Shown piece after piece: positions 1,108-60,507 of a stretch of 64,000 nt of DNA. Source of the DNA: Sphyrna mokarran (Eukaryota); the NCBI GenBank assembly GCA_024679065.1, contig JAGIQG010000006.1:115320001-115384000 (forward strand), in the 5' to 3' direction. The position numbers and the translations under genes are program-made. Below the pieces are notes generated by a model. It searched no databases. It worked only from the letters and a program-made list of their open reading frames with translations, and had not been told where the DNA came from. The first letter of the stretch is position 1. The number at the start of each line of letters is the position of its first letter.

Positions 1108-1322
1108 AAGAACAAAGAACAAAACAGCACGGGAAACAGGCCCTTCGGCCCAACGAATCGCCACCCCGATGTTCCCACCTCTACCTGCAATCCCTGTCCA
1201 TGTTTATAGACCTACGGATTAAAAACCAAATTTGAGACAATTTAGGGAGAATTTGTTTTGCCAATTAGCCTAAGAGCACATCTTTGGGATGTGGGAGGAA
1301 ACCAGAGTGCCCGGAGAAAACC
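1108..1322 (-). mobile_element. 5'-truncated retroelement: partial V-domain plus CR1-type 3' tail
   Basis: Tail cagcacgggaaacaggcccttcggcccaacga is identical to that at about 54209-54240. The V-domain part tgtgggaggaaaccagagtgcccggagaaaacc is also shared. Ends in (TTCTTTG)n on the minus strand. Confidence 0.8.
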
Positions 1323-2379: not shown

Positions 2380-2569
2380 AAAAGGTGAGAAATGCCTTTA
2401 CAGGAAACAGGAAGGGACTTCAAAAGACACAATGTAATTAATTCTTGTCTGGTTAAGAAATTAGTCCTTGAAAATTAACGTAACAGTCATTTAGTATGTT
2501 TAGTATATGTTTTCTGAACTATGTAACAGATATTGTAAGTGGCATCTTGGGAGACTGGTTAGAAAAAGG

Positions 2570-2948
2570 AGATAGCAGCATACTGGTAATATCACTGGAC
2601 TAATAATCCAGATGCCCAGACTCATGCTCTGAGGACTTGGGTTCAAATTCTAGCATGGCCGCTGGTGGAATTTACATTCCAGTAATAAAATCGATTAATT
2701 GGAAATAAAATCTGGAATAAAATCAGTAATGATAACCATGAAACTACCATTGATATTTATAAAAATCTATCTGGTCCACTAATGTCTTTTAGGGAAGGAA
2801 TTCTGGTTACACATGACTCCAGATCCACAACAATGTGGTTGACTCTGAACTGCCTTCTGAAATAAGCACTTAGTTCAAGGACTATTAAGGGATAGGCATC
2901 AAAGGTTGGCTTTGCCAATGACGTCCACATCTCATGAATAAATAAGAA
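2570..2948 (+). mobile_element. tRNA-headed SINE-like element, family 2
   Basis: Colinear with 37990-38378: B box ggttcaaattc, ggtggaattt, ctggtccactaatgtctttagggaagga, and a 3' tail ending catgaataaataa. Confidence 0.85.
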
Positions 2949-3065
2949 TGAACTGCCTGGAAGAACTCAGACAATATCAGAGAGGTTCCTGGATCAAGGA
3001 GGGCAAAAAAGGAAGGTATCAAGGAATTAACTGCTATTCTGCTACATGAGATTATGCTTTCCTCA

Positions 3066-3261
3066 GGCAGTTCTAGTTTTCTCCCACACTTTAAAGATGT
3101 GCAGATTAGGTTGATTTAACCATGGTAAATTATCCCTTAATGTTAGGGGAATTAGCAGGATAAATACGTGGGGTTACGAGGATAGGATGGGATTGTTGTC
3201 AGGGCAGATTTAAATGGGCCTAATAGCCTCTTTCTGCACTGTGAGTTTCTATGATTCTATG
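3066..3261 (+). mobile_element. V-SINE 3' fragment
   Basis: ctcccacactttaaagatgtgcagattagg...ctgcactgtgagtttctatgattctatg tail. Confidence 0.8.
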
Positions 3262-10268: not shown

Positions 10269-10531
10269 GGCAACACAGTGGTTAGCACTGCTGCCTCACT
10301 GTTCCAGGGACCCAGGTCCGGGTCCTGGCTTGGGTCACTGTCTGTGTGGAGTTTGCACATTCTCCCTGTGTCTATGTGGGTTTTCACTAGATTCTTCGGC
10401 TTTTTTCCACAGTATAAGAGACGTGCTGATTAGGTGCACTGGCCATGTTAAATTCTACCTCAGTATACCCGAACAGATGACTATGGGATTTTCACAGTAG
10501 CTTCCATTTTTGACACTAATAAATAAACTTT
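10269..10531 (+). mobile_element. V-SINE, subfamily with tgacactaataaataaac tail
   Basis: cagtggttagcactgctgcctcac head, V-domain, tail gggattttcacagtagcttcc...tgacactaataaataaacttt. Confidence 0.9.
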
Positions 10532-12269: not shown

Positions 12270-12545
12270 GGTGGCACAGTGGTTAGCACTGGTCCCAGCG
12301 CCAGCGACCCAGATTCAATTCCGGCCTCGGGTCACTGTCTTCTATGGAGGTTGCACGTTCTCCCTGTGTCTCTGTGGATTTCCTCTGGCTGCTCTGGTTT
12401 CCTCCCACACTTCAAAGATGTGCAGGTCATGTTGATTGGCCATATTAAATTGTCCCTTGGTATCAGGGATTAGCAGATACATATATTGGGTTAGGGCTGG
12501 GTAGGAATAGCCTTCCTCTGCACTGTAGGGATTCTGTGATTCTAT
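12270..12545 (+). mobile_element. V-SINE (HE1-like, CR1-type tail)
   Basis: ggtggcacagtggttagcact head, V-domain, tail ctctgcactgtagggattctgtgattcta. Confidence 0.9.
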
Positions 12546-12564: not shown

Positions 12565-12875
12565 GGGTGGCACAGTGACACAGTGGTAAGCACTGCTATC
12601 TCACAGCACCAGGGACCTGGGTTTGATTCCTGGCTTGGGTCACTGTTTATGTAGAGTCTGTACATTCTCCCCGTGTCTACGTGGGTTTCCTCTGGGTGTT
12701 CCAATTTCCTTCCACAGTCTGAAAGATGTGCTGGTTAGGTGCATTGACTTGAATTTTTGATCAGTGTACCCGAATAGGCGCCAGAGAGTGGCAACTAGTG
12801 GATTCTCAGAGTAATTTCATTGCAGTGTTAATGCAAGCCTACTTGTGACACTAATGAATAAATGTCTAAACTTCT
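12565..12875 (+). mobile_element. V-SINE, subfamily with tgacactaat tail, in tandem with the previous copy
   Basis: tRNA head, V-domain, tail gtaatttcattgcagtgttaatgcaagcctacttgtgacactaatgaataaa. Confidence 0.9.
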
Positions 12876-23429: not shown

Positions 23430-23772
23430 ACTTAAGCATTTCTTTAGCACCTGTTCCGAAGTCTTTCATAGCCAATAACAGTAGTAGTAATAATATTAAT
23501 AATCAGTGACTCAATTTTACCTTTGTGAGCTGAGCGGCCAATTTGTGCCAAGCATGATTCCACAACTATCAGTGATAAATGATCAGTCAACCTATTTTCG
23601 TGATGGTGGTTGAGTGGTAATGAGACAGGACATTGGGAGACTGGAGCATTTATTTTCTAGAATTGCCATTATATCTTGACTTGAAAGGGCAGATAGAGCC
23701 TCAATTTAACATCTCTCTGAAAGACAAGACCCTTGAACAGGGCAACATTTCCTCACTACTGCATTGTGCTGT
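23430..23772 (-). mobile_element. DeuSINE (SacSINE1/AmnSINE1-like) remnant
   Basis: gcggccaatttgtgccaagcatgattccacaa...gtgatggtggttgag...gggcagatagagcctcaatttaacatctctctgaaagac...cctcactactgcat follows the recalled reverse Deu-domain consensus. Confidence 0.72.
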
Positions 23773-23782
23773 TGTTCTTACT

Positions 23783-24140
23783 TATTCATTCTGGGATGTG
23801 GCATCACTGGCTGGGTCAGCATTTATTGCCCATCCCTGAAGACACTTAAGTTACACATAGGCCAGACCTGCTCTTAAGTCACATATAGACCAGACCTGCC
23901 CTTCAACCTGAACTAGATGGGGAGGCAGTGGCATAATGATATTATCACTGGATAATAACCCAGAGACCCAGGGTTTTTCTGGGAACCCCGCTTTGAATCC
24001 CACCGTGGCAGATGGTAAAATTTGAACTTAATAAAAAAAATCTGGATTGTTGTAAAACAAAAGTCAAATGGAGTCACATATAGGCCAGACGAGGTAAGGA
24101 CAATAGATTTCCTTATCTAAAGGACATTAATGAACCAGAG
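23783..24140. mobile_element. Internally rearranged copy of tRNA-headed SINE family 2
   Basis: 3' tail on minus (23783-23850), head on plus (about 23895-24058), middle on minus (about 24070-24140). Each block matches 25338-25652. Confidence 0.85.
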
Positions 24141-24360: not shown

Positions 24361-24834
24361 AATCTAATTTCCTGGAAAATCTCAGCAAGTCTGGCAGCAT
24401 CTGTAAGGAGAGAAAAGAGCTGATGTTTCGAGACCAGATGACCCTTTGTCAAAGCTAAAAGGCATAGAAAGTGGAAGACATTTACAGTGTAGAGTGAGGG
24501 AATGAAAGATGAGTCATAGTCAGCACGCAGAACTGTAAACTTATAGCTTTTCTGCCATTTGGCCATTCACCTGTTTATTCTCTCTGTGGACAGTTGTTAG
24601 CAGTCTTTTCTTCTGACTTCCATGGCTATGACTCATCTTTCATTCTGTCACCCTGCACTATAAATATCTCCCACTTTCTATGCCTTTTAACTTTGACAAA
24701 GGTTATTTGGACTTGGAATGTCAGCTCTTTTCTCTCCTTATAGATGCTGTCAGACCTGCTGAGATTTTCCAGCATTTTTTCTTTTGGCTTCAGATTCCAG
24801 CATTCACAGTAATTTGCTTTTAATCTAATTTCCT
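24361..24834. repeat. Inverted repeat of Penelope-pLTR-type arms flanked by a 13-bp direct repeat
   Basis: Arms about 24372-24521 and 24622-24772 are reverse complements. aatctaatttcct occurs at 24361-24373 and 24822-24834. Confidence 0.88.
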
Positions 24835-25337
24835 TGTTCTTTCCCCATAGTCTTGTGAACCTGGCGTTGTTAATGTATTAATTCCAATTTGGAAGTTACT
24901 GATGAATTTGTTTCTTCCACCATTTCAGGCAATGCACTCAAGATGATCACTTCCCTCCGATTCTTCCATTCTGCAATTTCAGGTATCTAATTATACAATT
25001 ACATAATCCAAGACCTGAATCAAAAACTGGTCTTTTCACATGCACTCATATACATTTCTCTCTCCAACCTTTCACTGAGAAATATTTCATTTGGATGTGA
25101 ATTGTTATGCCATCTTATTTTCAAGTAACAAATGAATATTAACCAAAAGCAACTTCTTCATTCAATTTCATTTTATAAGCTGGAAGAAAATGCTAAATTC
25201 TATACCTGCTCCTTTTGTGGAGGACTTACTAGTGTTTTTACTCCTTGCAAAAGCTGACCTCATGCATCTTAGGTTTCAGAACTAAATTGTTCTTTAAAGA
25301 TTGTGTTTCTTTTTTCTCCTGTGTTATTGTTCATATT

Positions 25338-25652
25338 TATTCATTCTGGGATGTGGGCGTCACTGGCTGGGACAGCGCTTTTTGCTCATCCCTGAAGACA
25401 ACTTAAGAGATCTGGAGTCACATTTAGACCAGACCATGTAAGGACAATAGATTTTCTTACCTAAAGGACATTAGTGAACCAGATGGGTTTTACAACAATC
25501 CAGTTTTTTTTATTAAATTCAAATTTTACCATCTGCCATGGTGGGATTCAAAGCTGGGTTCACAGAACATTATTCTGAGTCTCTGGGTTACTAGTCCAGT
25601 GACAATATCATTATGCCACTACCTCCCCATCTAGTTCAGTTTGAAGGGCAGG
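25338..25652 (-). mobile_element. tRNA-headed SINE family 2, short subfamily
   Basis: Minus strand gtggcataatgatattgtcactggactag...tttgaatcccaccatggcagatggt...gggatgagcaaaaagcgctg...acgcccacatcccagaatgaata. Confidence 0.88.
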
Positions 25653-27614: not shown

Positions 27615-27912
27615 GTGACACACTGGTTAGCACTGCTACCTCTCAGAGCTAGGGAACCGGGTTCGATTCCTGGTCTGGGTCACTTGTCTGTGCAGAGCCT
27701 GCACATTTTCCATGTCTGCATGGGTTTCCTCCAAGTGTTCGATTTTCTCCCACAGTCCAAAAGACAAGCTGATTAGGTGGGTTAGACATGCTAAATTCTC
27801 CCTCGCTGTACCCAAACAGGCGCTAGAATGTGGCAACTAAGGGATTTTCACAGCAACTTCATTGCACCGTTAATAAAATCTACTTGTGACACTAATAAAT
27901 AAACTTAAACTT
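27615..27912 (+). mobile_element. V-SINE, tgacactaat-tail subfamily
   Basis: tggttagcactgctacctc, B box ggttcgattcc, V-domain, tail tacttgtgacactaataaataaacttaaactt. Confidence 0.9.
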
Positions 27913-36220: not shown

Positions 36221-37150
36221 CAAAACGGGGAAAATATATCAGCCAGTGCATGAAAGGATGTAATACTTTAAAAAAATATGCAGACTCTTGTTTTTCAATA
36301 ACAAGCACCATAGGGTGCTTCCATATAGGAAAGTGGGCTAAACACAAGGTAAGGAAGCTCAGTATTCAGTTGTGAAGAGGATCCTCACAGATAAAATTCT
36401 ACAGCAGCTATTTGGTGCTACAAAAACACCTTGTTTACAGAAATAAGAAGTCCTGCCCATTTTTGCTTCTTGCACTTAAAAGCAATGTTTCAAATGGTCC
36501 GACTATTATTGTTCAGTGCCAATAAAATACTGAAGTATAAATTCTGTGGGACACACAGCAGCTTCACTGAGCAATAATTCTCCCCAATGCATTTCTAATT
36601 GTAAATGTTTAAAGGATTCAGCAGTAATAAAAAAAAGTTTTCAGATGTTGGCCCTGAGCCTACTAAATTTATAAACTGCTGGTTTCCTGCATTTTTCTTT
36701 TATTACACATTTCAAAGATTAGCAGCAGCGCTGCACAACACAGACCTCCAGGTTAACAATGCCAATTGCAGCACTGAGATCCACAGGTTGCAATTCAATT
36801 AATTCGGTTAACGAAAGGAAGGCAAATCATGTACTCCATCCCAGTGTTTACTTATCTTGCCAGTTTTACGCAGGATCCAGGATCCAAACTCATTCATCTG
36901 CGAGTGAAGCTGAAGACTTCACCGCAACAATTATGTAGGTTTTCTGGGAAAACTGGCACCTGAAATTCCAATGGTTGGAAGTTCAGTTTTTATTTCCAAT
37001 TATGCTGAACAATTCTTACCCACATTGTACTGCTAAATTTGAGCCGCAATGGTTAAATGCAGCAGTGTTTATGTACACTGGAGGAAAGAAAGTGTTACAC
37101 ATTAATTTACCGCAGGCATTTCTTGGACATATTTTTAAAAGTATTATTAC

Positions 37151-37515
37151 ACTTGGTATTTCTCCAGGCTCTAAGCCATTTTCTCCACTCTCAGCTTCGC
37201 TGGTTTCCTCCTCCGTGGAGACACTGCTGGTTTCGTGTCGTTTCCAGCAGCTCTGTTCAGTTTCTGTATCAATGTCTTCAAATGATTTCTGACATAATTC
37301 GACTTTGGTGTGGAGCACATCCTCCTCCTTGCACGTCTGCAGACCCTTGCTCTCTACTTTGATTTTAAGGTCAACATTGGTATCCTCTGAGTATTCTGAA
37401 GAGCTGTCGACTACATCAAGTTTGTCTGTCGATGTTACTGATGAGCAATTATCCAGTTTTCTCTTTCCATTAGCTTTATTTTTGCACTTGTTGCTGGTAA
37501 GATTAGAACAAGAAT
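37151..37515 (-). CDS. kdm4c: KDM4C coding exon, linker (365 nt, phase 1 to 0)
   Basis: Acceptor tttttgtcctgcag. Open frame DSCSNLTSNK...LKIKVES...EAESGENGLEPGEIPS; NGLEPGEIP is a recalled KDM4C motif. Donor AGT|gtaata is weak and was chosen because it fits the phase of the next exon. Confidence 0.9.
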
Positions 37516-37989
37516 CTGCAGGACAAAAATGAATACTTTGACTTCAGTTGCTACACAAAGTAATGTCAGATGTTAACTATAAAGAAAAATACCACACATG
37601 CTGTGTAGTTATTATAAAGGGATATGTTATTTGTGTTATTTCAAATAACTATTACTGTAAATCAGTATTGAAGCAGGTCCATTGGCAAAATGTCAGTAAA
37701 TTAACTGAAGTCAATACAACATTGAAAAAAGAACACAGAGGGATCCCTAATCATATTATTTAGCAATAATGCTCGAACATTAAGTGCAATATGGGATAGC
37801 ATTACATGGTGTTTGCAGAGCACTCAGCCAACAGATTTAAAATAAAAGCACCTTCAGGTGTCACAGTTCCACAGAGGAAACACAGGCTTATAGAGCTGAA
37901 TTTACGAATGATAGCAAAATGGGAGGCTTGTTAATTCCTTATAAGGTAAAAGCAAGCAGCAAAGGTTTATTAGAGAGAGAAAAGAATAT

Positions 37990-38378
37990 GGAGGGAAGGC
38001 GATGGCCTAGTGGTATTATCGTTAGACTATTAATCCAAAAGCTCAATTAATGTTCAGAGGACCTGGGTTTGAATTCTGTCATGGCAGATAGTGGAATTTA
38101 AATTCAATAAAAACATCTGGAATTAAGAATCTCCTAGTGACCACGAAACCATTGTTAATTGTCAGAAACACCCATTTGGTTCACCAATTTATTTCAAGGA
38201 AGAAAATCTGCCATCCTTACCTAATCTGGTCTACATATGACTCCAGAACCCCTCAGCACTGTGGCTGACACTCAACTGTCCTCTGAAATGGCCTAGCAAG
38301 CCAGTCAGATCCAGGGCAACTAGGGATTTGCAATAATTGCTGGACAACCAATGACACCCATGTCTCACGAATGAATAA
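37990..38378 (+). mobile_element. Full-length tRNA-headed SINE family 2
   Basis: A box tggcctagtgg (38003-38013), B box ggtttgaattc (38066-38076). The 3' tail cagggcaactagggatttgcaataattgctgg...cacgaatgaataaaa is shared with the LINE end at about 43340-43412. Confidence 0.92.
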
Positions 38379-40560: not shown

Positions 40561-40589
40561 ACCTTTTATCAGAGCTTAACCATGCACCT

Positions 40590-40716
40590 TAGTTGATAAG
40601 TATATGGATGAGAAGGGAATGGTTTAGTTAGGAGGGGCATTGCTTTTTATTTTGGTCGGCACAACATCGAAGGCCGAAGGGCCTGTTCTGTGCTGTATTG
40701 TTCTATGTTCTATGTT
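40590..40716 (+). mobile_element. Very short young CR1 3' insertion with 5-bp TSD
   Basis: Closely matches 60370-60500; (tgttcta)n tail; CACCT at 40585-40589 and 40717-40721. Confidence 0.9.
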
Positions 40717-41199: not shown

Positions 41200-43412
41200 A
41201 AAAAGGCTACAAAACAGGAAGACTTATGTGCCAAGCACATAAGCAGCAAGTCACTGACAGAGCTAAGTCAGAGACAAATCCCACAATGGCTCAAATCTAA
41301 GCTCTGCAGTCTTGCCACATCAAGCCATGCATAGTGGTGGACAATTAAACAATTCACTGTAAGATGAGGCTCCACATATATCCTTATCCTCAATGATGGA
41401 AGAGCCCAGCACATTGGTGCAAAAAAAATAAGGTTAATATTCACAACAATCTTCAGCCAGAAGTGCTGAATGGATGATCCATTTCAGCCTCCTCTAGAGG
41501 TCCTCAGCATCACAGATGTCAGTCTTCAGCTAATTCTACTCACACCTGTGTGATATCAAGAAACGGCGAAAGGCAACGGATGGATATTGCAAAAGCATTG
41601 GCTCTGACAACATTCTTGCAAAAACACTGAAAGCTTGTGCAGCAGAATCTTGTTACCTCACTAGCCAACCTGTCCGAGTATAATGTTCCAACACTGACAT
41701 CTACCCAGCAATGTGGAAGATTGTCCAGGTATGTCTTGCATACAGCAGACAGGACAAATGCAACCCAAGTAAGTACTGCCCCATCAGTTTACTCTCGATC
41801 ATCAGTAAAGTGTTGGAAGAAGTCATCAACAGTGTTATCAAGGGACACTTACTTGGCAATAGCATGCTCATTGACACTGAATTTGGGTTCTACTAGGGTC
41901 GCCGAGCTCATGACCGCATTACAGCTTGGGTTCAAATATAAAGATACAAACCGAATTTGAGGTGAGAATGATTGCCCATCACACTGTGGCTATATTTGAC
42001 TGAGTACAGTATCAAGAAGCTCTAGAAAACAAGTCGATGGGAATCAGAAGGGGGAACTTTCCACTGTTTGAAGTCATACCTGGCACAAAGAAAGTTGACT
42101 GTAGTGACTGCAGCTCAATCATCTCATTCCAGGACATCACTGCAGGAGTTCCTTAGTGCAGTGTCTAGGCCCATCTTCAGCTGCTTCATCAATAAGCTTT
42201 CTTCCATCAGAAGTTCAGAAGTGAGATGTTTGCTAATGACTGCACAATGTCCAGTATTATTCATGATTCTTCACGATACTGAAGTAGTCCATGTCCAAAT
42301 GCAGCAAAACCCGGACACAATCCAGCATTGGGCTGACAAGTGGCACATAACATTCACTCCGTACAAGTGCCAAACAATGACAATCTTCAACAAGAAATAA
42401 TCTAATTCTCACCCCTTCTCATTCAATCGCATTACCATTGCTGTATTCACTATTATCAACATCCTGGGGATTACCATTGACCAGAATTCAAACTGGACTA
42501 GCCAGATAAGTATTGTGGCTACAAAAACAGTTCAGAGGCAAGGAATCCTGCAGCAAGTAAATCACCCATTGACATTCCAAAGCCTGTCCACCAACCACAA
42601 GGCCACAAAACTTTTTAAAATTAAAATTAATTTATTTGTGTCACAGGTAGGCTTACATTAACATTGCAATGAAGTTACTGTTAAAATCCTCTAGTTGCCA
42701 CACTCCGGTGCCTGTTCGGGTATACAGAGGGAAAATTTAGCATGGTCAATGCATCAAACCAGCACATCTCTCAAACTGTGGGAGGAAACCCATGCAAACA
42801 TGGGGAGAATGCACAGACTCCGCACAATGATCCAAGCCAGGAATCAAATGTGGGTCCCTGGCACTGAGAGGCAGCAGTGCTAACCACAATGCCTCCCTCA
42901 GGAGTGTGATGGAATACTCTCCGCTTGCCTAAATGAGTGCAGCTCCAACAACACTCAAGAAGCTTGACACCATCCAGGACAAAGCAGCCAACTTGACTGC
43001 TATCCCTTCAAACATTCAATCGATCTACCATCGATGAATAGTGGCAGTCATGTATACATTCTGCAAGATACACTTCAGGAACTCGGCAAGGTTCCTTAGG
43101 TAGGGGCTTCCAAACTCACAACCACTACCACCTCAAAGAACAAGAACAACAGGTACTTGGAAACATCACCATCTGGGGAGGTTCTCAGGTACCATCACAT
43201 ACCATCCTGACTTGGAAATATATTGCTTTTTTATCACTGTTGCGAGGTCAAAATCCTGGAACTCCCTAACAGCAGCGTGAGTGTATCTACACCTCAGGGA
43301 TTGCATCAGTATACGAAGACAACTCACTACCACCAGTTCTCAAGGGCAACTAGGGATGGGCAATAAAAGCTGGTCTGGCCAGCAATGCCCACATCCCATA
43401 AATGAATGAAGA
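41200..43412 (+). mobile_element. CR1-group LINE ORF2 (RT) with 3' end, interrupted by a V-SINE
   Basis: WKIVQVCL...QDKCNPSKYCPISLLSIISKVLEEVIN...EFGF, CFIN.L, IQHWADKWHITFTPYKCQ, RSVMEYSPLA; tail caagggcaactagggatgggcaataaa...aatgaatgaag. Confidence 0.9.
42612..42897 (-). mobile_element. V-SINE (tgacac tail subfamily) nested in the LINE
   Basis: tttatttgtgtcacaggtaggcttacattaacattgcaatgaagttactg...tgggaggaaaccc...gaggcagcagtgctaaccac. The LINE resumes at tcaggagtgtgatgg. Confidence 0.9.
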
Positions 43413-45519: not shown

Positions 45520-46318
45520 CATGGTGGAATTTGAGAAGTAAAAAATTTAGAATTTTTTTTTAAGTCAAATAATTACTATGCAATCATTGTTGGTTGTCAT
45601 AAAAACTCATCTGGTTCACTGATGTTGCTTAGGGTAGGAAATCCACCATCCTTATCTGGTCTGACCTTCATGTAACTCCAGATCCACACAACGTGTCGAC
45701 TTTTAAACGGCCTCTGAAATGGCCTAGCAAGCCACTCAGTTGTCTCAAACCATTAGCAAGTCTATAAGGAATGAAACTGGATAGATCACCAGGCACAGAT
45801 CTTGGCTCCAAAAATGACAAGAGCAAACTCAGCCCTGCTGATCTTGCAAGTCCTCTTTACTAATATCTGGAGGCCTGTGCCAAAATCTGGAATGCTAACT
45901 CAGAATGGCCAAGCAACAACTCAACATAATCACACTCACAAAAATATATCTTGCACATAATGTTTCCAAACACAACCACTGGCAAGACACCATACACAAG
46001 GTGAGCTGGAGGAACCCACCAATGTTGGGTACCTTTCAAACCCATGACCGTTACCATCTAGAAGGTCAAGGGCAGTAGTTGCAAAGGAACGCCACTACCT
46101 GGAAGTTTCCCTTCAAGTCATACATCAGCCTGAGATAGAAATATTTCTTCGGTCGAGATCCTGGAACTCCCTCCCTACAGCACTACAGGTGTACCTAAAC
46201 TATATGGATTGCAGCGGTTCAAGAAGGCAAGTCGTCATTACCTTCTCAAAAGCAATTAGAGGTGGACACTAAATACAGGTCTACCCAGCAATACCCATAT
46301 TCCATGAATGAGTAAACA
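45520..46318 (+). mobile_element. Internally deleted LINE: SINE-family-2 body, AP-endonuclease start and LINE 3' end
   Basis: 45520-45741 matches the SINE body. About 45850-45980 translates VLFTNIWRPVPK / AKQQLNIITLTKIYL (APE N-terminal motifs, with a frameshift). About 46030-46318 matches 43110-43412. Confidence 0.75.
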
Positions 46319-47070: not shown

Positions 47071-48278
47071 TTCGCCTAAAATGCACCTGAACCAACCCAC
47101 TTTAGGAATCTTATTAAGCTTGCACTGATACAAGCCATCATTTTGACATCTTAGAATGGTCCCCATTGCTGAATGATACCAGAGAAACAAAGGAACTCAG
47201 AGTTCAATTCCTCATGCATTAGAATTGAAGGGGATCTCATCAATCCAGAAGTATCACAATTCCCAGTTCTCCAACTTTCTGTGCCCACATTTCCTCCACC
47301 AATTCTTTTGCCTTGTACTTCCCAGTATTTCAGCCTAAGCATTATTGAGATTAAGGATTTGAATCTTAATCACCACTCCAACATTCTTTTAGACAGTAAA
47401 AGCTGGTAGTGAAGGATGGCTATTGCTAGAGCAGGAAACTGAGCTGGTGTGGGCCAATCTACGTGACAGGGATTCCCTACAAGTTCACAGAAAATGGGAT
47501 GATCTGCATCCCTGAGTTTCACTGCAATTCCTTCCATAACCTATTTTCTATTTCCATATTGATCTCATTATCACCCGATTTTCCTTTGCACCATTGTCAC
47601 TTTTGTCACCCATTCATCGCTACAACATATGACAGAAGCCTCACTTTTCTCACCTTGCCCTAACCCCATCATCACCCTTCTCCACACACCCTTCAGCCCC
47701 ACTCCAGCTCATCCCTGACAACATTTAAAGGCATTCATCTTGAACACTTTTCTGTGCTGATGAGAGATCAAGCTGAAAAATTAACTCCATTTCTTTCTCC
47801 ACACATGTTGCTTGACTTGCTGAGAGTTTTCAGCATTTTCTGTTATAATTTATACCTTATTTAAATGTTAAAAGGCAATTCAACTGTGCAAACCTAAGCC
47901 TGACCTCATCTTCGCCCAGCATCCAGTAATATGCATTTTAAGGAAGGGTGACAGGAAAGGATCCAAGGCAAACCATGTGGCCTATTTTCTTAAACTGGGC
48001 TAAGCAGCCAACATGAACTTTAGCTATCCAACAGCCTCTCCAATTAGAAAGAATAACTTGGGCACAGCAATAATGAAACCAAATACCTTATATTTAGCAT
48101 TGCACGATGCAGTACGATATTCACCAACTCAGTGAGAATAATGTCACATTCAGAACATTTCTGTAGATTAACTGACATTGGAAGGCATAATGAAATAGAT
48201 AACATGATATTGCAACTGTCAAGATTCTTGGCTTTGAACTGTTTATAAAAGTGAACACAAAAACATTTTCTTTCTTAC

Positions 48279-48526
48279 CTGGTAACTGGGTCTTATCCAA
48301 TTGGTTCTGATCCAACTGGATTTCCTCAATACTTTCTTCTCCAGTACTCATTACTTCTGCATTGCTAGACTGTTCTTTCTGTGCTCCCCCACTGGGCTCT
48401 TCTTTGATACTGATAGCATCTGTAAATGTTTTAGCTGCAGCTGTTTCTTTAGTCACAGGTTTGCACAATGTGGTTTCATCTTCCAGGGCTTTTAGCTTTT
48501 TAGATCGAGTTCTTAACTGATAGAGA
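48279..48526 (-). CDS. kdm4c: KDM4C coding exon, acidic linker (248 nt, phase 2 to 1)
   Basis: Acceptor tcttctgtag, donor CAG|gtaaga. Continues the frame as (S)LYQLRTRSKKLKALEDETTLCKPVTKE...IKEEPSGG...QLDQNQLDKTQLP. Phase matches both neighbours. Confidence 0.9.
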
Positions 48527-48918
48527 CTACAGAAGATATGACAATTAGGTTAAAACTACCATGAATAAAATTATATGCATCCTTATAAATTTTTTGCCCA
48601 AACAATTACTCCTGAATTATATCTATTCATTTCTACAGCATTGCCATATCAAAATGTTTTGAGAAGTTATTTTCTAAACAAGGCTTTAAACTTTAATGGC
48701 ATGCAATGAATATTTTCAAACTGCATATTTAATGTTCAGATAAAATGGCCCATGACTCAAAATACTTACATATCTATGAAACAAGGTTTATTCAAGAAAA
48801 ATATCAGAAATAACAAGATTACCACTTTTGCAAACAAATTAACTGACTTTGAAAAATTTTAACACCGTAACAAACTCAGCATTGCATACCTCAGGTTTAA
48901 ACGAGTTGGATATGTTAC

Positions 48919-51945: not shown

Positions 51946-54190
51946 TAAGACTCAAAATATTGTGGGAAAAAAATGCAACTGATCTTCAGCTGTGGGCAAT
52001 ACAAGTAAAAGAACATGCTCTTGAAAGTTAAATAAGTAAATTTGCCTAAACTATGAGAAGCACAATTGAAAAGGTATCCAGGAACAGATCTAAATTCTAA
52101 AACTTAAAGGTTTATCAATAATAAATAAAATATCTAATATAATTGGCATCAAAGAGATGCTAAATACACTTTTACAGAAGAACTGCAACCACAAATAATT
52201 GATAATACTTTTTTATGTTACTTAATGCAAAAGAATCAGAGGTTTTTATTAAACTGATTTTGGACACTACGTTTGTTACATTTTTCTTGCATTTTTATCA
52301 TTAATTTTGTTGTTATCTTCATAATCTAGGATTAATAACATTAAGCAATTGCGTTATTGCAATTTATGTGAGTTAAAAGGTGCATAAGACACTTGCTTAA
52401 AACAAAGTAATCTTCACCATTAGCAGACACCACAATAACTTGCTATACATGTTTTGAACTTTTAAAGAAGAATCATTTAAAACTTTGTTTACGTCATTAC
52501 CAAAGGATAACAAATAGTTGCTTAATGAACTGTTTATAGAGATTACTGCCTGCTATCGAACATACAATGGGTGGGTTTTTCTGGCCGCGCTTGTTCCAGA
52601 ACTGTAAAATCTCATCCAAGGTCAACAGACCTTTTCATGCTCCACCTCTCAGCTCTCTGTTTCCCTTTGCAGACGGGCAGGTAAAATACCAGCCAAAGTA
52701 GCAACAACACAAGATTATTACGTTATTAATAATTTTATATTTAACTTCATTACAAACAATCAGTTAACTTTGTTAGATGTTCTTTGCAGAATAAAGTAGG
52801 GTTTATTAGAAATAGGGCACATAATAGAATTATGCTAGGGAGTCTACGTCAAGTTTTTTAAAGAGCGAACTGCAGCTACAAACAAACCGTACAACTGCTT
52901 GTGTACATTAATGCAGAGACTTTGCCTTGAGAGAACAAACAATAAATAAAACGTTTTATGATAAGTGAGGCAGAAGAGGAGGAGGTGTGCGTGCATGTGG
53001 GGCAGAAGGTCGGTTCTGTAGTTACCCAGTAGGTTAAACTAGGATTTTTCTGTTTTCTGTTTAGCATTTCCTGTACAACTGTCCAAGTGAATAGCACAAA
53101 CTATCCAATATCTTCAACTCTAACTCAGGTTTGGAGACTTCCGTGGCGGGTCACGGGGAGCAGGAGAATTACCCATCAGAAGTTCAACCTTCCACAGCAT
53201 TCCCATAGACATCAATGTGTCAGAACATCTGTGGAATCCAGGCATGCAAATTGGGTTGTGGATCCAAACTCCAGACACCAGAAGATCTGGGCCATTATAT
53301 CTGTATAAAATATTTTATGTTGAAGTTGTTGAATATGTTTCATAACTAAAATACATTATTGTTTGTTAATACACCCAATCAGTTTCTGGCTATGAATTCA
53401 AAAGATTGAGTTCACCATCCCACAGTAATTTATCTGTTTGCCAAAATATTGATATTTTAGGTTTATTTCTCCAAGCTAATAATCATGCATACAAAAACAG
53501 AATGTCTCACTTTGCCAATTTATTTCTACTAATCCAATACGTGATGAAGAAATTACTTTGGCTCAAGTTACACTGTACTCAAATCAGCACATGATAACAC
53601 CTGAAGACCTTTCATTTAATTTCAATGATTTAGTTAACAACCTGATTTCTACTGCAACTATTACACTAATATCCATTTAAAAATACTTCACTAAAATTTC
53701 AGATTTTTAAGTTTGATTAAAATCTAACACATTTGCTAACATTGTGATGTCACAAGTCAACGTTAATCAATTATTAAGATCACTCAAATATTAAAATATT
53801 TTTCTGATAAATGTTGATGGGCCAATTTTAACAAAGAGTCAACATCAGACATATTACTCTCTCTTTCAGATGCTGAAGTATTTTTCCTATATATTCTATT
53901 TTTGTTGTAATATCTTTAAACTTTGTGTTCCTTTCAGGTTACACAACATTGTCTTTTGAAGTCAAGCACACACATGATCTCTGTAAGGTCATGGAGATGG
54001 GAAAGCAAAGCTGTTACTTCAGGGAGCCGCAAAGTAACAGGCAAGACAGGCCATACAACCACATTCCACCCTCAGAACATCTATGTTTCTATATTATAGG
54101 AGAACACAACTTCAATTAATATTAAATTTAAAAAATTTGAGAATAAAATCTCCTTCTACAAATTAATGTTATTTCTGTTCCAATGATTTC

Positions 54191-55400
54191 TTTTTTTTTT
54201 AAGCAACACAGCACGGGAAACAGGCCCTTCGGCCCAACGAGCCCGCGCCACCGTAATACCAAATCATTATCCTATTTTAATAGTCCTATATAATAATATA
54301 TATATTAATCCTAATTTGGAAAATTTTCACCATAGGGACAATTTGTTACCCAATCAGCCTAAGAGCGAATTTTTGGGTTGTGGGAGGAAACCGGAGTGCC
54401 CGGAGAAAACCCACGCAACCACGGGGAGAACGCGCAAACTCCCGCAGACACCGGCCCAATTCCAAGTGTCTGCACAGCCACATCGATAGTCTCTGAGCTG
54501 TCATGGTGCCCTTCAGATGGTCCACATAAAGCACTCATTTACGACATGAGGTACCAGGCAACCCATGAATCAACATCCAAGAGCTGTACCCGCACCACCT
54601 GCCGAATGCGTGCTCAAATGATGGACCGAATTACCTGTGGAAAAAAGCCGTAGTTAAACAGTCCTAATATATCCCTCTATCTGCATACCGCTCATGTGGC
54701 TGTCCAAGAGACCCTTAAACAGCCCCAGCGTGCCTGCTCCCACCACCTTACTCGGCAGTGCATTCCACACCCCCACTACCCTTTGTGTGAAAAACTGCCC
54801 TCTAATATTCGTCCTATACATAGCCCCCCTCACCCTATGGCCATGACCTCTCGTCCTATCCATTTCTAAAGGTGGAAAAAGTTTACCTCCATTTACTCTA
54901 TCTATACCCCTTATAATCTTATACACCTCTATGAGATCCCCTCTAAGCCGACGTCTTTCAAGGGAAAACAACCCCAGTCTATCTAATCGTTCCTCATAAG
55001 ACAGTCCTTCCATACCAGGCAGCATCCTGGTAAACCTCCTCTGCACTCTCTCCAAGGACTCCACATCCTTCCGATAGTACGGAGACCAGAACTGGGCGCA
55101 GTATTCCAAGTGAGGCCTAACCAAAGTTGTATACAACTGCAACATCAAACTCCTACTCTTATATTCTATACCCTTTTCTATGAAAGCTAACATACTATAC
55201 GCCTTCTTTGTCACCTTCTCCACCTGTGAGGACACCTTCAGAGACTTGTGAACCTGCACCCCCAAGTCTCTCTGCGTCTCTATGCTCCTTATAGTTTTAC
55301 CTTTTATCCTATAATTCTCTTCTACATTTTTCCGGCCAAAATGCATCACCTCGCATTTTTCCGGATTAAATTCCATTTGCCATCTATCTGCCCAATCTGT
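54191..55400 (-). mobile_element. Young 5'-truncated CR1 LINE with uninterrupted ORF2 C-terminus and a long V-domain-containing 3' UTR
   Basis: About 249 open codons (WADRWQMEFNPEKCEVMHFG...LVRPHLEYCAQFWSP...FFTQRVVGVWNALP), stop at 54654-54656, V-domain about 54333-54452, tail gggccgaagggcctgtttcccgtgctg followed by an A run; CpGs retained. Confidence 0.92.
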
Positions 55401-57564
55401 CTTTGTTAAAGGGATAACAGCTAAATAAGTAAAATTACTAAACGAATTGCAAAAGCCTGCACTTATTCGTTGGAACACCATACTGCCTAACTAAAGCTGA
55501 TGAGTCTTTTTCATCTTGTTGACGTGTGAAAACAGCTCACTGGATGCTAATGCTCAAGATTTATAACACTTATAAAATAGCCATTTTTATATATGTGATA
55601 AATCTGGTTTTTTTCCCCTAAAATAGACTTCCTGGTTTACTATTATGAAGCCACCATGGATTAGTATACCAGATTTAACTTGTTTACACAATATACCTCC
55701 ATTAACTCAGATTGCCATTCCACTGGAAGTTATCACGTTGAATTGCATCTTTGCTTGGAAGTTCTTAGCTGAAAAGCTAGCCGATCCTAACTTGCCCAAC
55801 CTTCCAACTCAGGCTGAGAGACTTGAGCAATGCAGCACATCTCTGGGGTCTCGTGTTGAAGTAAATAAGTTGTGCCCTCTTTCCACTAGCTGCAATAAGC
55901 CAGGTAAGTTTAAATGTCCAGCCAGATTCAAGATAAAGTGGTAGTGGGGTAGGGTGTCATGGCGGGGTGGCGGGGAGTGGTGGAAGGAGTGGGGAGGTGG
56001 GTTTACCTCTAGTTTGACAGATGGGGTAATGGGGATATGAGAAGACAATTCTAGCCACAGTTATTGCAAAAGCATTCATGGACCATTTCTCTCATATTCA
56101 ATTCTTTGTACTTTTCCATACTCGCCTTCACTTGGCATTAGATTGCCCACCTAAATAGCTGATCCATATCATTTGATAGAACATAGATCTACCTTACCCT
56201 CACCCAAATTGCAAATGTGACCATTTTGCACTGAGCCACTGAATGCAGATTGTAACACCAATTAGAAACAGTTCACTAGTTCATTACATCACACCATTCT
56301 TTGCTTTTGTGTTTCGCTTGCCTATTTTGACTTATGGTGAATCAACCTGAAAGACTGTCTGCTGAAGTCTGTAATCACACAATTTAATACTTTGCACATT
56401 AAAAATTAATTATAGAGCACGGTTTTGAAATGCACAACAATGTTCTATTAATATGGAACATTCTGAATAAAAAGAGCTAATCTACAGCAATAAAAATAAA
56501 AAAAATCCAGAGATTTGAATGCCCATGTGCAACTGCTAATCTACAATAATGTTATACCAAATCCAAAATTAATTACACTCCTGGAAACATTTAATTATAT
56601 TCAAACCACTAGAGCAGTTGGGTCACGTTCCTACAATAAAGTTAGAAAGACAATTCTTAAATACTACCAACACATCTTTGGGTTTCTACAATCCTAGTAA
56701 TAAACATTTATAATCAGTTATAACCACTTGTGCTTATTAGCAGATTCCTCATGATATCATTCAAAGGAAAATCAAGTTGCATAGTGCCAAAAGTTTTATT
56801 CCACACAATTGTTTTTCTGTTGTGTCTTGATTCAAGCCACAAAATCTAACTGCCCGAAATGTAGATACCCAAGATCAATTCAAATATCACTTGAGGAGGG
56901 AACTTTACTGATTGGAACATAGTCATTCATTTCAAGCTGCGATTCAGAAATCAAGGAAACAAAAGAGATGGAAATGAAACTGAAAGATGAGTGAAAATTG
57001 GGAGCAAAGTTGAAGAGGTTTTCCAATTTGGGCAAGAGCAGGAAATGGCACAGATACAGTCACCTGTGCACTGGAAATCAAGGAGAGAGAAGGGCTCCTT
57101 TAATAGGAGTGAAACAAGAAATGTTTCATGTATGCCATAAGAAGGCAAGCATAGCTAAGACCTAAGTGCATACCCAGAGCAACAGCTCTTATTTGGAGGA
57201 GGTAGGATGAATTAAAAGAGCAATTGTTCAGTGAGAAAAGAAATTCAACCAGACAGAGAAGTGAGTAGGAAGATGGTCAATGGGAACTAGTTGGGTTTCC
57301 ATTCAATGAAGAGAAGGATATAAAGTGAAGAAAAGAAGGGCCTTCAGACTGTTCTGGTGCTCAATGCTCTATCCTTAGCAAAGGACTCAGCATTATTCCC
57401 TTACAATCCCAGCTTAACAAATAAAGCTCAGCATGAAGTTAAACTCCTCTTCCGACACATTTATCTCTGTGTCCATTTCTTTGGCCAGACGTCCTTCTTT
57501 GCTCAATGGATCCATTCATCTGCCTCCAGTGTTCTCTCTTCACTAATCAATTGGAACATGATCA

Positions 57565-59656: not shown

Positions 59657-60507
59657 TTTGCAGAGAGACTTGGACAAGTTGCAGAGCTGGGCTGAGAGGT
59701 GGCAAATGGAGTTTAATGTGGAAAAGTGTGAGGTAATGCACTTTGGCAGGAACAATAAATGTGTAGCGTATAGGGCTAATGGTAGGGCTCTTAATAGTGT
59801 TGAGGAACAGAAGGATCTTGGTGTATGTGTCAATAGATCCCTGAAAGTAGGCAGTCAAGTGGATAAAGTTGTTAAGAAGGCATATGGAGTCTAGCTTTTA
59901 TTGGTAGGGGGATTGAATTTAGGAGCCGCAGCATCATGTTGCAACTGTACAAAACTCTAGTGCGGCCGCACTTGGAGTATTGTGTGCAGTTCTGGTCCCC
60001 ACTTTATAAGAAAGATGTGAAGGCATTGGAGAGGGTACAGAGGAGGTTTACCAGGATGTTGCCTGGTATGGAGGGCAGGTCCTATGAAGAGAGGTTGAAG
60101 GATTTGAGGTTGTTTCGTTAGAAAGGAGGCGGCTAAGAGGGGATCTTATTGAAGCATATAAGATGATTAGAGGTTTAGATAGGGTGGACCGTGATAGCCT
60201 TTTTCCTAGGATGGAGAAAGCTAGCACGAGGGGACACAGCTTTAAATTAAGGGGTGATAGTTATAGGACGGATATCAGAGGTAGGTTCTTTACCCAGAGG
60301 GTGATTAGGGAGTGGAATGCCCTGCCTGCGTCAGTTGTAGATGCGCCAAGTTTGGTGGCGTTTAAGAGATTAGTTGATAAGTTTATGGAAGAGAAGGGAA
60401 TGGTTTAGTTTGGAGGGTCATTGCTTTTTTTTTCCATAATTGGCCGGCGCAACATCGAAGGCCGAAGGGCCTGTTCTGCGCTGTAACGTTCTACGTTCTA
60501 TTTTGCA
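59657..60507 (+). mobile_element. Young 5'-truncated CR1 LINE nested in the Penelope element
   Basis: LQRDLDKLQSWAERWQMEFNVEKC...RPHLEYCVQFWSP...FFTQRVIREWNALP with only two frameshifts; (cgttcta)n tail; TTTGCA at 59657-59662 and 60502-60507 as probable TSD. Confidence 0.93.

What the first reader, a model, noticed from the sequence alone, without database searches (positions are those of the whole stretch)
54191..55400. CR1 LINE that carries a V-SINE core domain inside its own 3' UTR
Seen: an uninterrupted CR1 ORF2 C-terminus stops at 54654. On the same strand it is followed by about 200 nt of unique sequence with no clear A/B box pair, then a CpG-intact V-domain (gtctgcgggagtttgcgcgttctccccgtggttgcgtgggttttctccgggcactccggtttcctcccac), an AT spacer and the CR1 3' stem-loop tail. 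The other young CR1 in the window (59657-60507) has only about 90 nt of UTR and no V-domain. A second truncated copy at 1108-1322 has the identical 32-nt tail and the same V-domain variants (gggcact.., gctcttaggct.attgg), which argues for a family. Established: SINEs normally borrow LINE tails. Inference: here an autonomous LINE appears to have captured the conserved SINE core, reversing the usual direction and bearing on the unknown function of V-domains.
Basis: partly seen in the sequence, partly recalled or inferred. Interest (0 to 1): 0.75.

Follow-up and report, generated by a model that had tools for sequence, protein, structure and literature searches.

The report
Shark LINE carrying a V-SINE core
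A young shark CR1 retrotransposon copy ends in the conserved core and tail of a normally parasitic short element, which would be an unusual host-takes-from-parasite capture if further copies confirm it is a family rather than a one-off hybrid.

Summary
The anatomy is real. On the minus strand, a 5'-truncated CR1 ORF2 is open to its stop at 54654. It is followed by 194 nt with no tRNA head, a V-domain (profile E=1.6e-19; 57/64 identical to a published frog V-domain), an AT-rich spacer, the only CR1 tail at the locus and an A-run. A weak 5-bp flanking repeat and uniform CpG retention fit one insertion. The ORF2 belongs to a distinct CR1 lineage (100/99 support) whose relatives also lack the canonical C-terminus, so the altered coding end is a family trait. 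What is not shown is a second copy of the ORF2-to-V junction. The copy at 1108-1322 is cut inside the V-domain, has a 52%-identical spacer and could be a plain SINE, and proxy searches found no junction copy. Best reading (0.6): a CR1 subfamily captured a headless V-SINE body plus tail by template switching. Main rival: a one-off chimera (0.25). Precedent exists for a DNA transposon (MER6), but a 2016 paper states that no such domain is known in LINEs.

The parts
55400..55404 (-). Candidate target-site duplication, 5' copy (AAAGA), abutting the start of CR1 homology
   Evidence: a match this good arises with random flanks in 0.097 of 20000 trials, so weak
54654..55399 (-). 5'-truncated CR1 ORF2 C-terminus, no stop or frame break, ending ...IEGYIRTV-stop
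   Evidence: relatives; clade 100/99
54629..54653 (-). First 25 nt of the 3' UTR with a T-run; weakly like the start of the short UTR of the CR1 at 60409
   Evidence: 0.4% of random pieces score as well against 60409-60455, but 30% against the copy at 40626; inconclusive
54519..54628 (-). Predicted 110-nt imperfect hairpin (43 pairs, 7 G-U) of unknown origin
   Evidence: z=-2.9 for a sub-window chosen after looking, z=-1.9 for the whole 194-nt segment, a level reached by 6 of 64 background windows
54444..54473 (-). Perfect 8-bp stem straddling the junction between unique sequence and the V-domain
   Evidence: 1.4% of window positions lie in or near such a loop; noticed post hoc
54379..54459 (-). 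V-domain without tRNA head
   Evidence: E=1.6e-19, alignment starts at profile position 68 of about 297, head ends about 73; by-eye comparison with published V-SINEs
54330..54378 (-). V-SINE body segment downstream of the core
   Evidence: 76% identical to the copy at 1240-1289
54253..54329 (-). AT-rich spacer (18% GC against 42-45% in four other V-bearing copies)
54201..54252 (-). CR1-type 3' tail stem-loop, the only one at this locus
54189..54200 (-). A-run, overlapping the 3' copy of the candidate target-site duplication (54193-54189)
1108..1322 (-). Related 5'-truncated copy: 3' half of V, body, GC-neutral spacer, same tail; LINE or SINE origin cannot be told

Best explanation
This is a young, 5'-truncated copy of an elasmobranch CR1 subfamily whose 3' UTR (about 455 nt) includes the body and tail of an HE1-type V-SINE. 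Shown: the order of parts, a single tail, the missing tRNA head, and the separate ORF2 lineage with a changed C-terminus. Inferred mechanism: CR1 ORF2 primed reverse transcription on the tail of a partner V-SINE RNA, copied through the V-domain, and at the head/body boundary switched template to a CR1 mRNA within its UTR. The switch may have been helped by the 8-bp complementarity across that junction. The product was a full LINE that kept a tail its own protein recognises and lost the Pol III head, which a Pol II-transcribed LINE does not need. It then multiplied as a master element long enough for the spacer to drift to 18% GC while V and tail stayed intact. Most likely role of V: it came in as a passenger of a tail swap and is kept as a structured RNA module of the retrotransposition RNP. 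This last step is the least supported.
For: Only one tail at the locus, downstream of V, and none between the stop and V or after the A-run. V-SINE homology begins at the head/body boundary. CpG o/e is 0.50, 0.59, 0.93 and 0.93 in ORF2, unique segment, V and tail, against 0.26 for the window and 0.21-0.39 for six old SINE copies, which fits one young insertion. A 5-bp repeat flanks the whole, and the other young CR1 has a 6-bp one. ORF2 groups with 6 unnamed proteins at 100/99 support, apart from the window's other CR1. Its closest relative P0090 (90%) ends in the same RTV-stop. None of the 7 relatives with a visible C-terminus (P0090, P0002, P0198, P0045, P0200, P0201, P0202) has the G-P-x-A-G-x-W-D end seen in P0005 and P0049. 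The candidate's spacer is unlike that of 4 of 4 other V-bearing copies measured. V and tail are 97% identical to the 1108 copy while the spacer is 52%. MER6 shows the same cut: SINE body and tail without head (PMC6887750).
Against: No second ORF2-to-V or unique-to-V junction was found in the window, among proteins (no candidate; 0 of 77 hits at E<=1e-30, and matches are essentially confined to the V part), or in bacterial assemblies. These sources hold little shark DNA, so the negatives are weak. The flanking repeat has a chance rate of 0.10. The 1108 copy has a different spacer and terminal repeat and may be a SINE. A changed C-terminus in relatives does not show that their UTRs carry V. The hairpin signal is modest once the whole segment is scored.
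Confidence: 0.6

Rival explanations
1. One-off chimeric retrocopy: a single template switch from a V-SINE RNA to a CR1 mRNA during this insertion, never amplified. The 194 nt are the ordinary UTR of this CR1 lineage.
For: It predicts one tail, one flanking repeat and uniform age, just as observed. No second junction was found. Template switching is the accepted route of SINE module exchange (passages of PMC4758252, PMC5499810). The scan that produced this finding selects for oddities.
Against: It needs a young SINE subfamily with an 18% GC spacer; 0 of the 4 other copies measured has one. It needs the switch to fall right at the head/body boundary. Such chimeras are a small minority of insertions (own knowledge).
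Confidence: 0.25
2. Two neighbouring insertions: a SINE-like element with a non-tRNA head (the 194 nt) or a truncated V-SINE landed in or beside a CR1 3' end.
For: The window is dense in V-SINEs (9 hits at E<1e-10). V-SINEs with other heads exist: a 5S-headed CORE+V element in PMC5804259 and LINE-headed LP-SINEs in PMC4758252.
Against: An insertion into a UTR should leave the rest of the UTR and a second tail, and none is present. There is no Rfam match for a head. The flanking repeat encloses both parts.
Confidence: 0.08
3. The direction is LINE to SINE: the V-domain is native to a CR1 3' UTR and V-SINEs took it from there.
For: Kojima 2018 (PMC5786205) shows that LINE pieces can become SINE bodies and proposes that conserved bodies came from lost LINEs. 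This V is closer to invertebrate V-SINEs (32/33 to BivaV-SINE2) than to the window's decayed SINEs (58-74%).
Against: The V-bearing lineage is nested among elasmobranch CR1s, and the other CR1 ends in the window have short UTRs without V. V occurs from cnidarians to vertebrates with several LINE tails (PMC4824008, PMC11481361). The low identity to window SINEs is explained by their age.
Confidence: 0.05
4. Assembly artefact joining a CR1 and a SINE.
For: Both parts are high-copy repeats; reads were not available.
Against: Misjoins need shared sequence at the junction, but here 194 nt of unique sequence separate the parts, and a flanking repeat encloses both.
Confidence: 0.02

Closest known systems
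HER1 LINE / HE1 V-SINE pair of sharks and rays (listed in PMC3747384; primary papers Ogiwara 1999, 2002 not held)
   Same: CR1-clade ORF2, V-domain, shared 3' stem-loop tail, elasmobranch host
   Different: HE1 has a tRNA head and no ORF, and the described sharing with HER1 is the tail. Here V sits on the ORF2-bearing molecule with no head. The HER1 consensus itself could not be inspected.
MER6/MER6A MITE (PMC6887750)
   Same: Another transposon carries a V-SINE body plus tail without the tRNA head and spreads it
   Different: MER6 is a non-autonomous DNA element, formed by SINE insertion into a MITE, where the tail is unused. Here the carrier is a coding LINE and the captured tail is the functional 3' end.
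Ingi-3_AC and R4-1_ADi (PMC5786205)
   Same: LINEs with a segment shared with a SINE body; recombination with a Ceph-SINE is suggested for Ingi-3_AC
   Different: There the segment is in the 5' UTR and is itself RTE-derived; here it is a true highly conserved domain in the 3' UTR.
LP-SINEs of molluscs (PMC4758252)
   Same: LINE sequence fused 5' of a conserved SINE body, replacing the tRNA head, probably by template switching
   Different: LP-SINEs are short and non-coding and use a LINE 5' UTR; here the LINE part is the coding 3' end.

Membership tests
CR1 clade LINE | ORF2 homologous to vertebrate CR1 ORF2 | tested here: met
   7042 hits at E<=1e-20; named top hits are shark, ray, turtle and bird retroelement proteins; tree. 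Pfam found nothing significant because the fragment starts at the end of the RT domain.
CR1 clade LINE | 3' stem-loop tail shared with partner SINEs | tested here: met
CR1 clade LINE | Terminal short tandem repeat rather than poly(A) | tested here: not met
   Ends in about one repeat unit plus a 10-nt A-run; the window's other CR1 ends and the 1108 copy end in 7-nt repeats. PMC13343379 says poly-A is peculiar to Zenon within the group; the A-run may be target sequence.
CR1 clade LINE | Full-length element with ORF1, endonuclease and RT (autonomy) | not testable with these tools
   Copy is 5'-truncated at about 55398; no shark genome collection was open
V-SINE (HE1 type) | V-domain of about 80 bp | tested here: met
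   57/64 to Racla (by eye); 32/33 to BivaV-SINE2 and 19/20 to its primer
V-SINE (HE1 type) | tRNA-derived head with A and B boxes directly 5' of V | tested here: not met
   Head profile finds all 6 training heads (E<=2e-16) and nothing at this locus; 12 pairwise tests against shuffles give p 0.03-0.87; negative
V-SINE (HE1 type) | Short, non-coding element | tested here: not met
   Contiguous with 248 open ORF2 codons inside one candidate flanking repeat
V-bearing CR1 family (proposed) | Several independent copies with the same ORF2-UTR-V junction | tested here: inconclusive
   None found, but these sources hold almost no shark DNA
Already curated consensus (Repbase, Dfam, Stuart 2026) | V-domain present in the 3' UTR of a deposited CR1 consensus | not testable with these tools
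   Consensus cells in the supplement of PMC13343379 are cut at 400 characters; Repbase and Dfam are not available

The most novel reading that the evidence does not exclude
A whole clade of autonomous shark CR1 LINEs (the lineage with RTV, RRLF and GRGH ends) captured a headless V-SINE module long ago and has kept the V-domain under selection in its 3' UTR, inside a structured RNA, while the spacer drifted. This would be the first SINE highly conserved domain maintained in a LINE, showing that V works in cis in retrotransposition independently of Pol III transcription.
Probability: 0.35. Interest if true: 0.78.

Novelty: new variant of a known kind. Interest (0 to 1): 0.52.

Why it matters
Why SINE core domains such as V stay conserved for over 600 million years is open. 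Luchetti and Mantovani 2016 (PMC5804259) discount the idea that they mediate SINE-LINE tail exchange because no such domain had been found in LINEs. A V-bearing LINE family would remove that argument. It would also give a direct test: an autonomous element in which V can be deleted or scrambled in a standard retrotransposition reporter. It affects annotation too, since some truncated shark 'V-SINE' copies would be LINE 3' ends. If the junction is unique, it is an ordinary chimeric retrocopy of little weight.

Tried and rejected
tRNA head in the unique segment: rejected. A recalled resemblance to 5S rRNA: not supported, Rfam gave 0 hits at E<=10 on 241 nt and 0 in the whole window at E<=1. A second V remnant right after the stop: a 16-mer there is identical to the V end of the decayed SINE at 10397, but a matrix of six other V ends (one row misregistered by a base) ranks the site 239 of 127,952, so it is treated as probable coincidence. 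SINE insertion into the UTR: no second tail. Proxy search for junction copies through the antisense frame 54363-54650: no candidate. The profile search gave 77 hits, the best at 5e-15; the few whose best stretch runs past the V part have only 39-51% identity (judged from the table alone). Exact look-up of two sense junction frames: absent. Bacterial assemblies as a source of contaminating shark DNA: pattern scan 0; protein scan gave 1 distant LINE contig, L001, 43% identical and without V. Plasmid and phage collections: no match. Short ORF2 C-terminal fragments: only 2 hits and no evident read-through into this UTR. Host gene identity: unresolved.

Full report
Setting. The window is elasmobranch DNA, inferred from the named relatives of its CR1 proteins and the tree; the species is not known. 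It holds 9 V-domain-bearing repeats at E<1e-10 to a profile built from 6 of them, and several CR1 fragments.

Observation. On the minus strand the frame is open from 55400 to the stop at 54656-54654. Relatives read R-L-V-D-W-A-D-R-W at this point, so CR1 homology starts at about 55398 and the copy is 5'-truncated. After the stop come 194 nt with no match elsewhere in the window by BLASTN or nhmmer, then the V-domain (54459-54379), about 50 nt of further V-SINE body, a 77-nt spacer of 18% GC, a tail hairpin (54250-54201) and 10 A. The V-domain is certain: E=1.6e-19 to the in-window profile. By eye it is 57 of 64 identical to the frog V-SINE Racla (supplement of PMC5804259) and 32 of 33 identical to BivaV-SINE2 (supplement of PMC4824008). 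There is no tRNA head. A head-only profile recovers its 6 training copies at E<=2e-16 and nothing here, and 12 pairwise tests against shuffles give p from 0.03 to 0.87. ARAGORN and Rfam are negative, though ARAGORN also finds none of the real, decayed heads. The profile match starts at position 68, where the head ends at about 73.

One unit or two? The tail profile finds one tail at this locus, after V, and none between the stop and V or beyond the A-run, which argues against a SINE dropped into a UTR. The repeat AAAGA flanks the whole element (55404-55400 and 54193-54189), right at the homology edges. Random flanks give such a match in 9.7% of 20000 trials, so this is weak support. CpG o/e is 0.50, 0.59, 0.93 and 0.93 in ORF2, unique segment, V and tail, against 0.26 for the window and 0.21-0.39 in six older SINEs. 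All this fits one young insertion but cannot separate a family copy from a one-off chimera.

Family evidence. The ORF2 fragment groups with six unnamed proteins at 100/99 support, away from the window's other young CR1 (44 rows: 42 proteins chosen from the 122 hits, plus two window rows; P0005 is labelled unnamed there but carries a bacterial NCBI name, probably a contaminant). P0090 is 90% identical and ends in the same RTV-stop. Seven relatives with visible ends all lack the G-P-x-A-G-x-W-D end of P0005 and P0049, so the altered coding end is a lineage trait and not damage to this copy. Their UTRs cannot be seen. The candidate's spacer is AT-rich where 4 of 4 other copies measured are 42-45% GC, which suggests a separate replicating lineage.

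Negative results. No second junction was found. The antisense frame spanning V and the unique segment had no candidate and no full-length match among 77 hits. Two sense junction frames are absent from the protein collection. Bacterial assemblies, plasmids and phages gave nothing relevant. These sources hold very little shark DNA, so the family question stays open.

Structure. The UTR (54660-54195) folds at z=-3.2, with 1 of 100 shuffles as stable. A 110-nt hairpin at 54628-54519 has 43 pairs with mean probability 0.92, and the 194-nt segment folds better on the sense strand (-68.6 against -47.4 kcal/mol). However, that whole segment scores only z=-1.9, a level reached by 6 of 64 background windows. 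A perfect 8-bp stem straddles the unique/V junction; 1.4% of window positions lie at such a loop. Both were noticed after the fact and have no covariation support.

Mechanism. Best reading (0.6): a template switch from a partner V-SINE RNA to a CR1 mRNA made a LINE with a SINE-derived 3' end, which then amplified. Shown are the order of parts, the single tail, the lack of a head and the ORF2 lineage. Inferred are the switch, the amplification and any role of V. The main rival is the same switch as a dead-end single event (0.25). Adjacent insertion (0.08), LINE origin of V (0.05) and misassembly (0.02) are less likely.

Comparison with what is known. It works like a stringent CR1 LINE that shares its tail with an HE1-type SINE. 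It is a CR1 by ORF2 and tail, and it is not a V-SINE (no head, coding). PMC6887750 (parts 1-3 of 5 read) shows that MER6 carries a V-SINE body and tail without head. PMC5786205 (parts 1-4 of 5 read, supplement searched) compared all Repbase LINEs and SINEs and reports only RTE and Vingi 5' pieces in SINE middles, plus possible uptake of a Ceph-SINE piece by Ingi-3_AC. PMC5804259 (passages, supplement search) states that no highly conserved domain has been found in LINE sequences. Seen as passages only: PMC4824008 (plus supplement part 1 and searched rows), PMC4758252, PMC3747384, PMC7245038, PMC11481361, PMC5499810. PMC13343379 was seen as abstract, passages and supplement searches; its shark CR1 consensus sequences are cut at 400 characters, so their 3' ends may already contain this architecture. 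Ogiwara 2002 was not held, Ogiwara 1999 was not requested, and the names HER1 and HE1 come from the table in PMC3747384. Ten searches returned no paper whose listing or read passages describe a V-domain in a LINE 3' UTR; the library lacks most subscription papers and Repbase Reports.

Verdict. The anatomy is real and a single insertion is likely, but family status is unproven. New variant of a known kind, interest 0.52. If a V-bearing CR1 clade is confirmed, interest rises to about 0.78, because it makes the function of the V-domain testable in an autonomous element.

Noticed in passing
window 10270-10530, 12575-12865, 27615-27906, 42618-42896 against 2084-2379, 3058-3255, 12271-12530: Two V-SINE subfamilies share head and V but have different tails: four end in a non-CR1 tail with AATAAA repeats, three in the CR1 stem-loop. 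This is a tail exchange within one genome.
   Followed up: partly
window 54660-54629 (-): The start of the UTR reads like a branch point, pyrimidine tract and AG directly followed by GT (overlapping acceptor and donor, as in recursive splice sites). It is in the same orientation as the probable host gene. Judged by eye only.
   Followed up: no
window 54650-54635 (-) and 10397-10412 (+): An exact 16-mer is shared between the UTR start and the V end of a decayed SINE; probably coincidence.
   Followed up: yes
window 59657-60507 (+) and 40589-40716 (+): A second CR1 lineage with a short UTR (93 nt). The 59657 copy has two frame breaks and a 6-bp target-site duplication, and it sits inside another, older repeat-like sequence.
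   Followed up: partly
window 48121-48549 (-) and 37016-37543 (-): Probable exons of a minus-strand host gene with acidic, low-complexity sequence; not identified by Pfam or the Atlas.
   Followed up: partly
window 24372-24772: A 400-nt self-complementary element (arms 85-89% complementary), MITE-like.
   Followed up: no
L001 2501-3364 and protein P0005: Animal-type LINE sequence in a bacterial MAG contig, and a shark-like CR1 protein under a Proteus mirabilis name; both are probably host contamination in public bacterial records.
   Followed up: no
window 2568-2863, 23765-24139, 25320-25652, 38003-38308, 45582-45741: A third dispersed short-repeat family, distinct from the V-SINEs.
   Followed up: no
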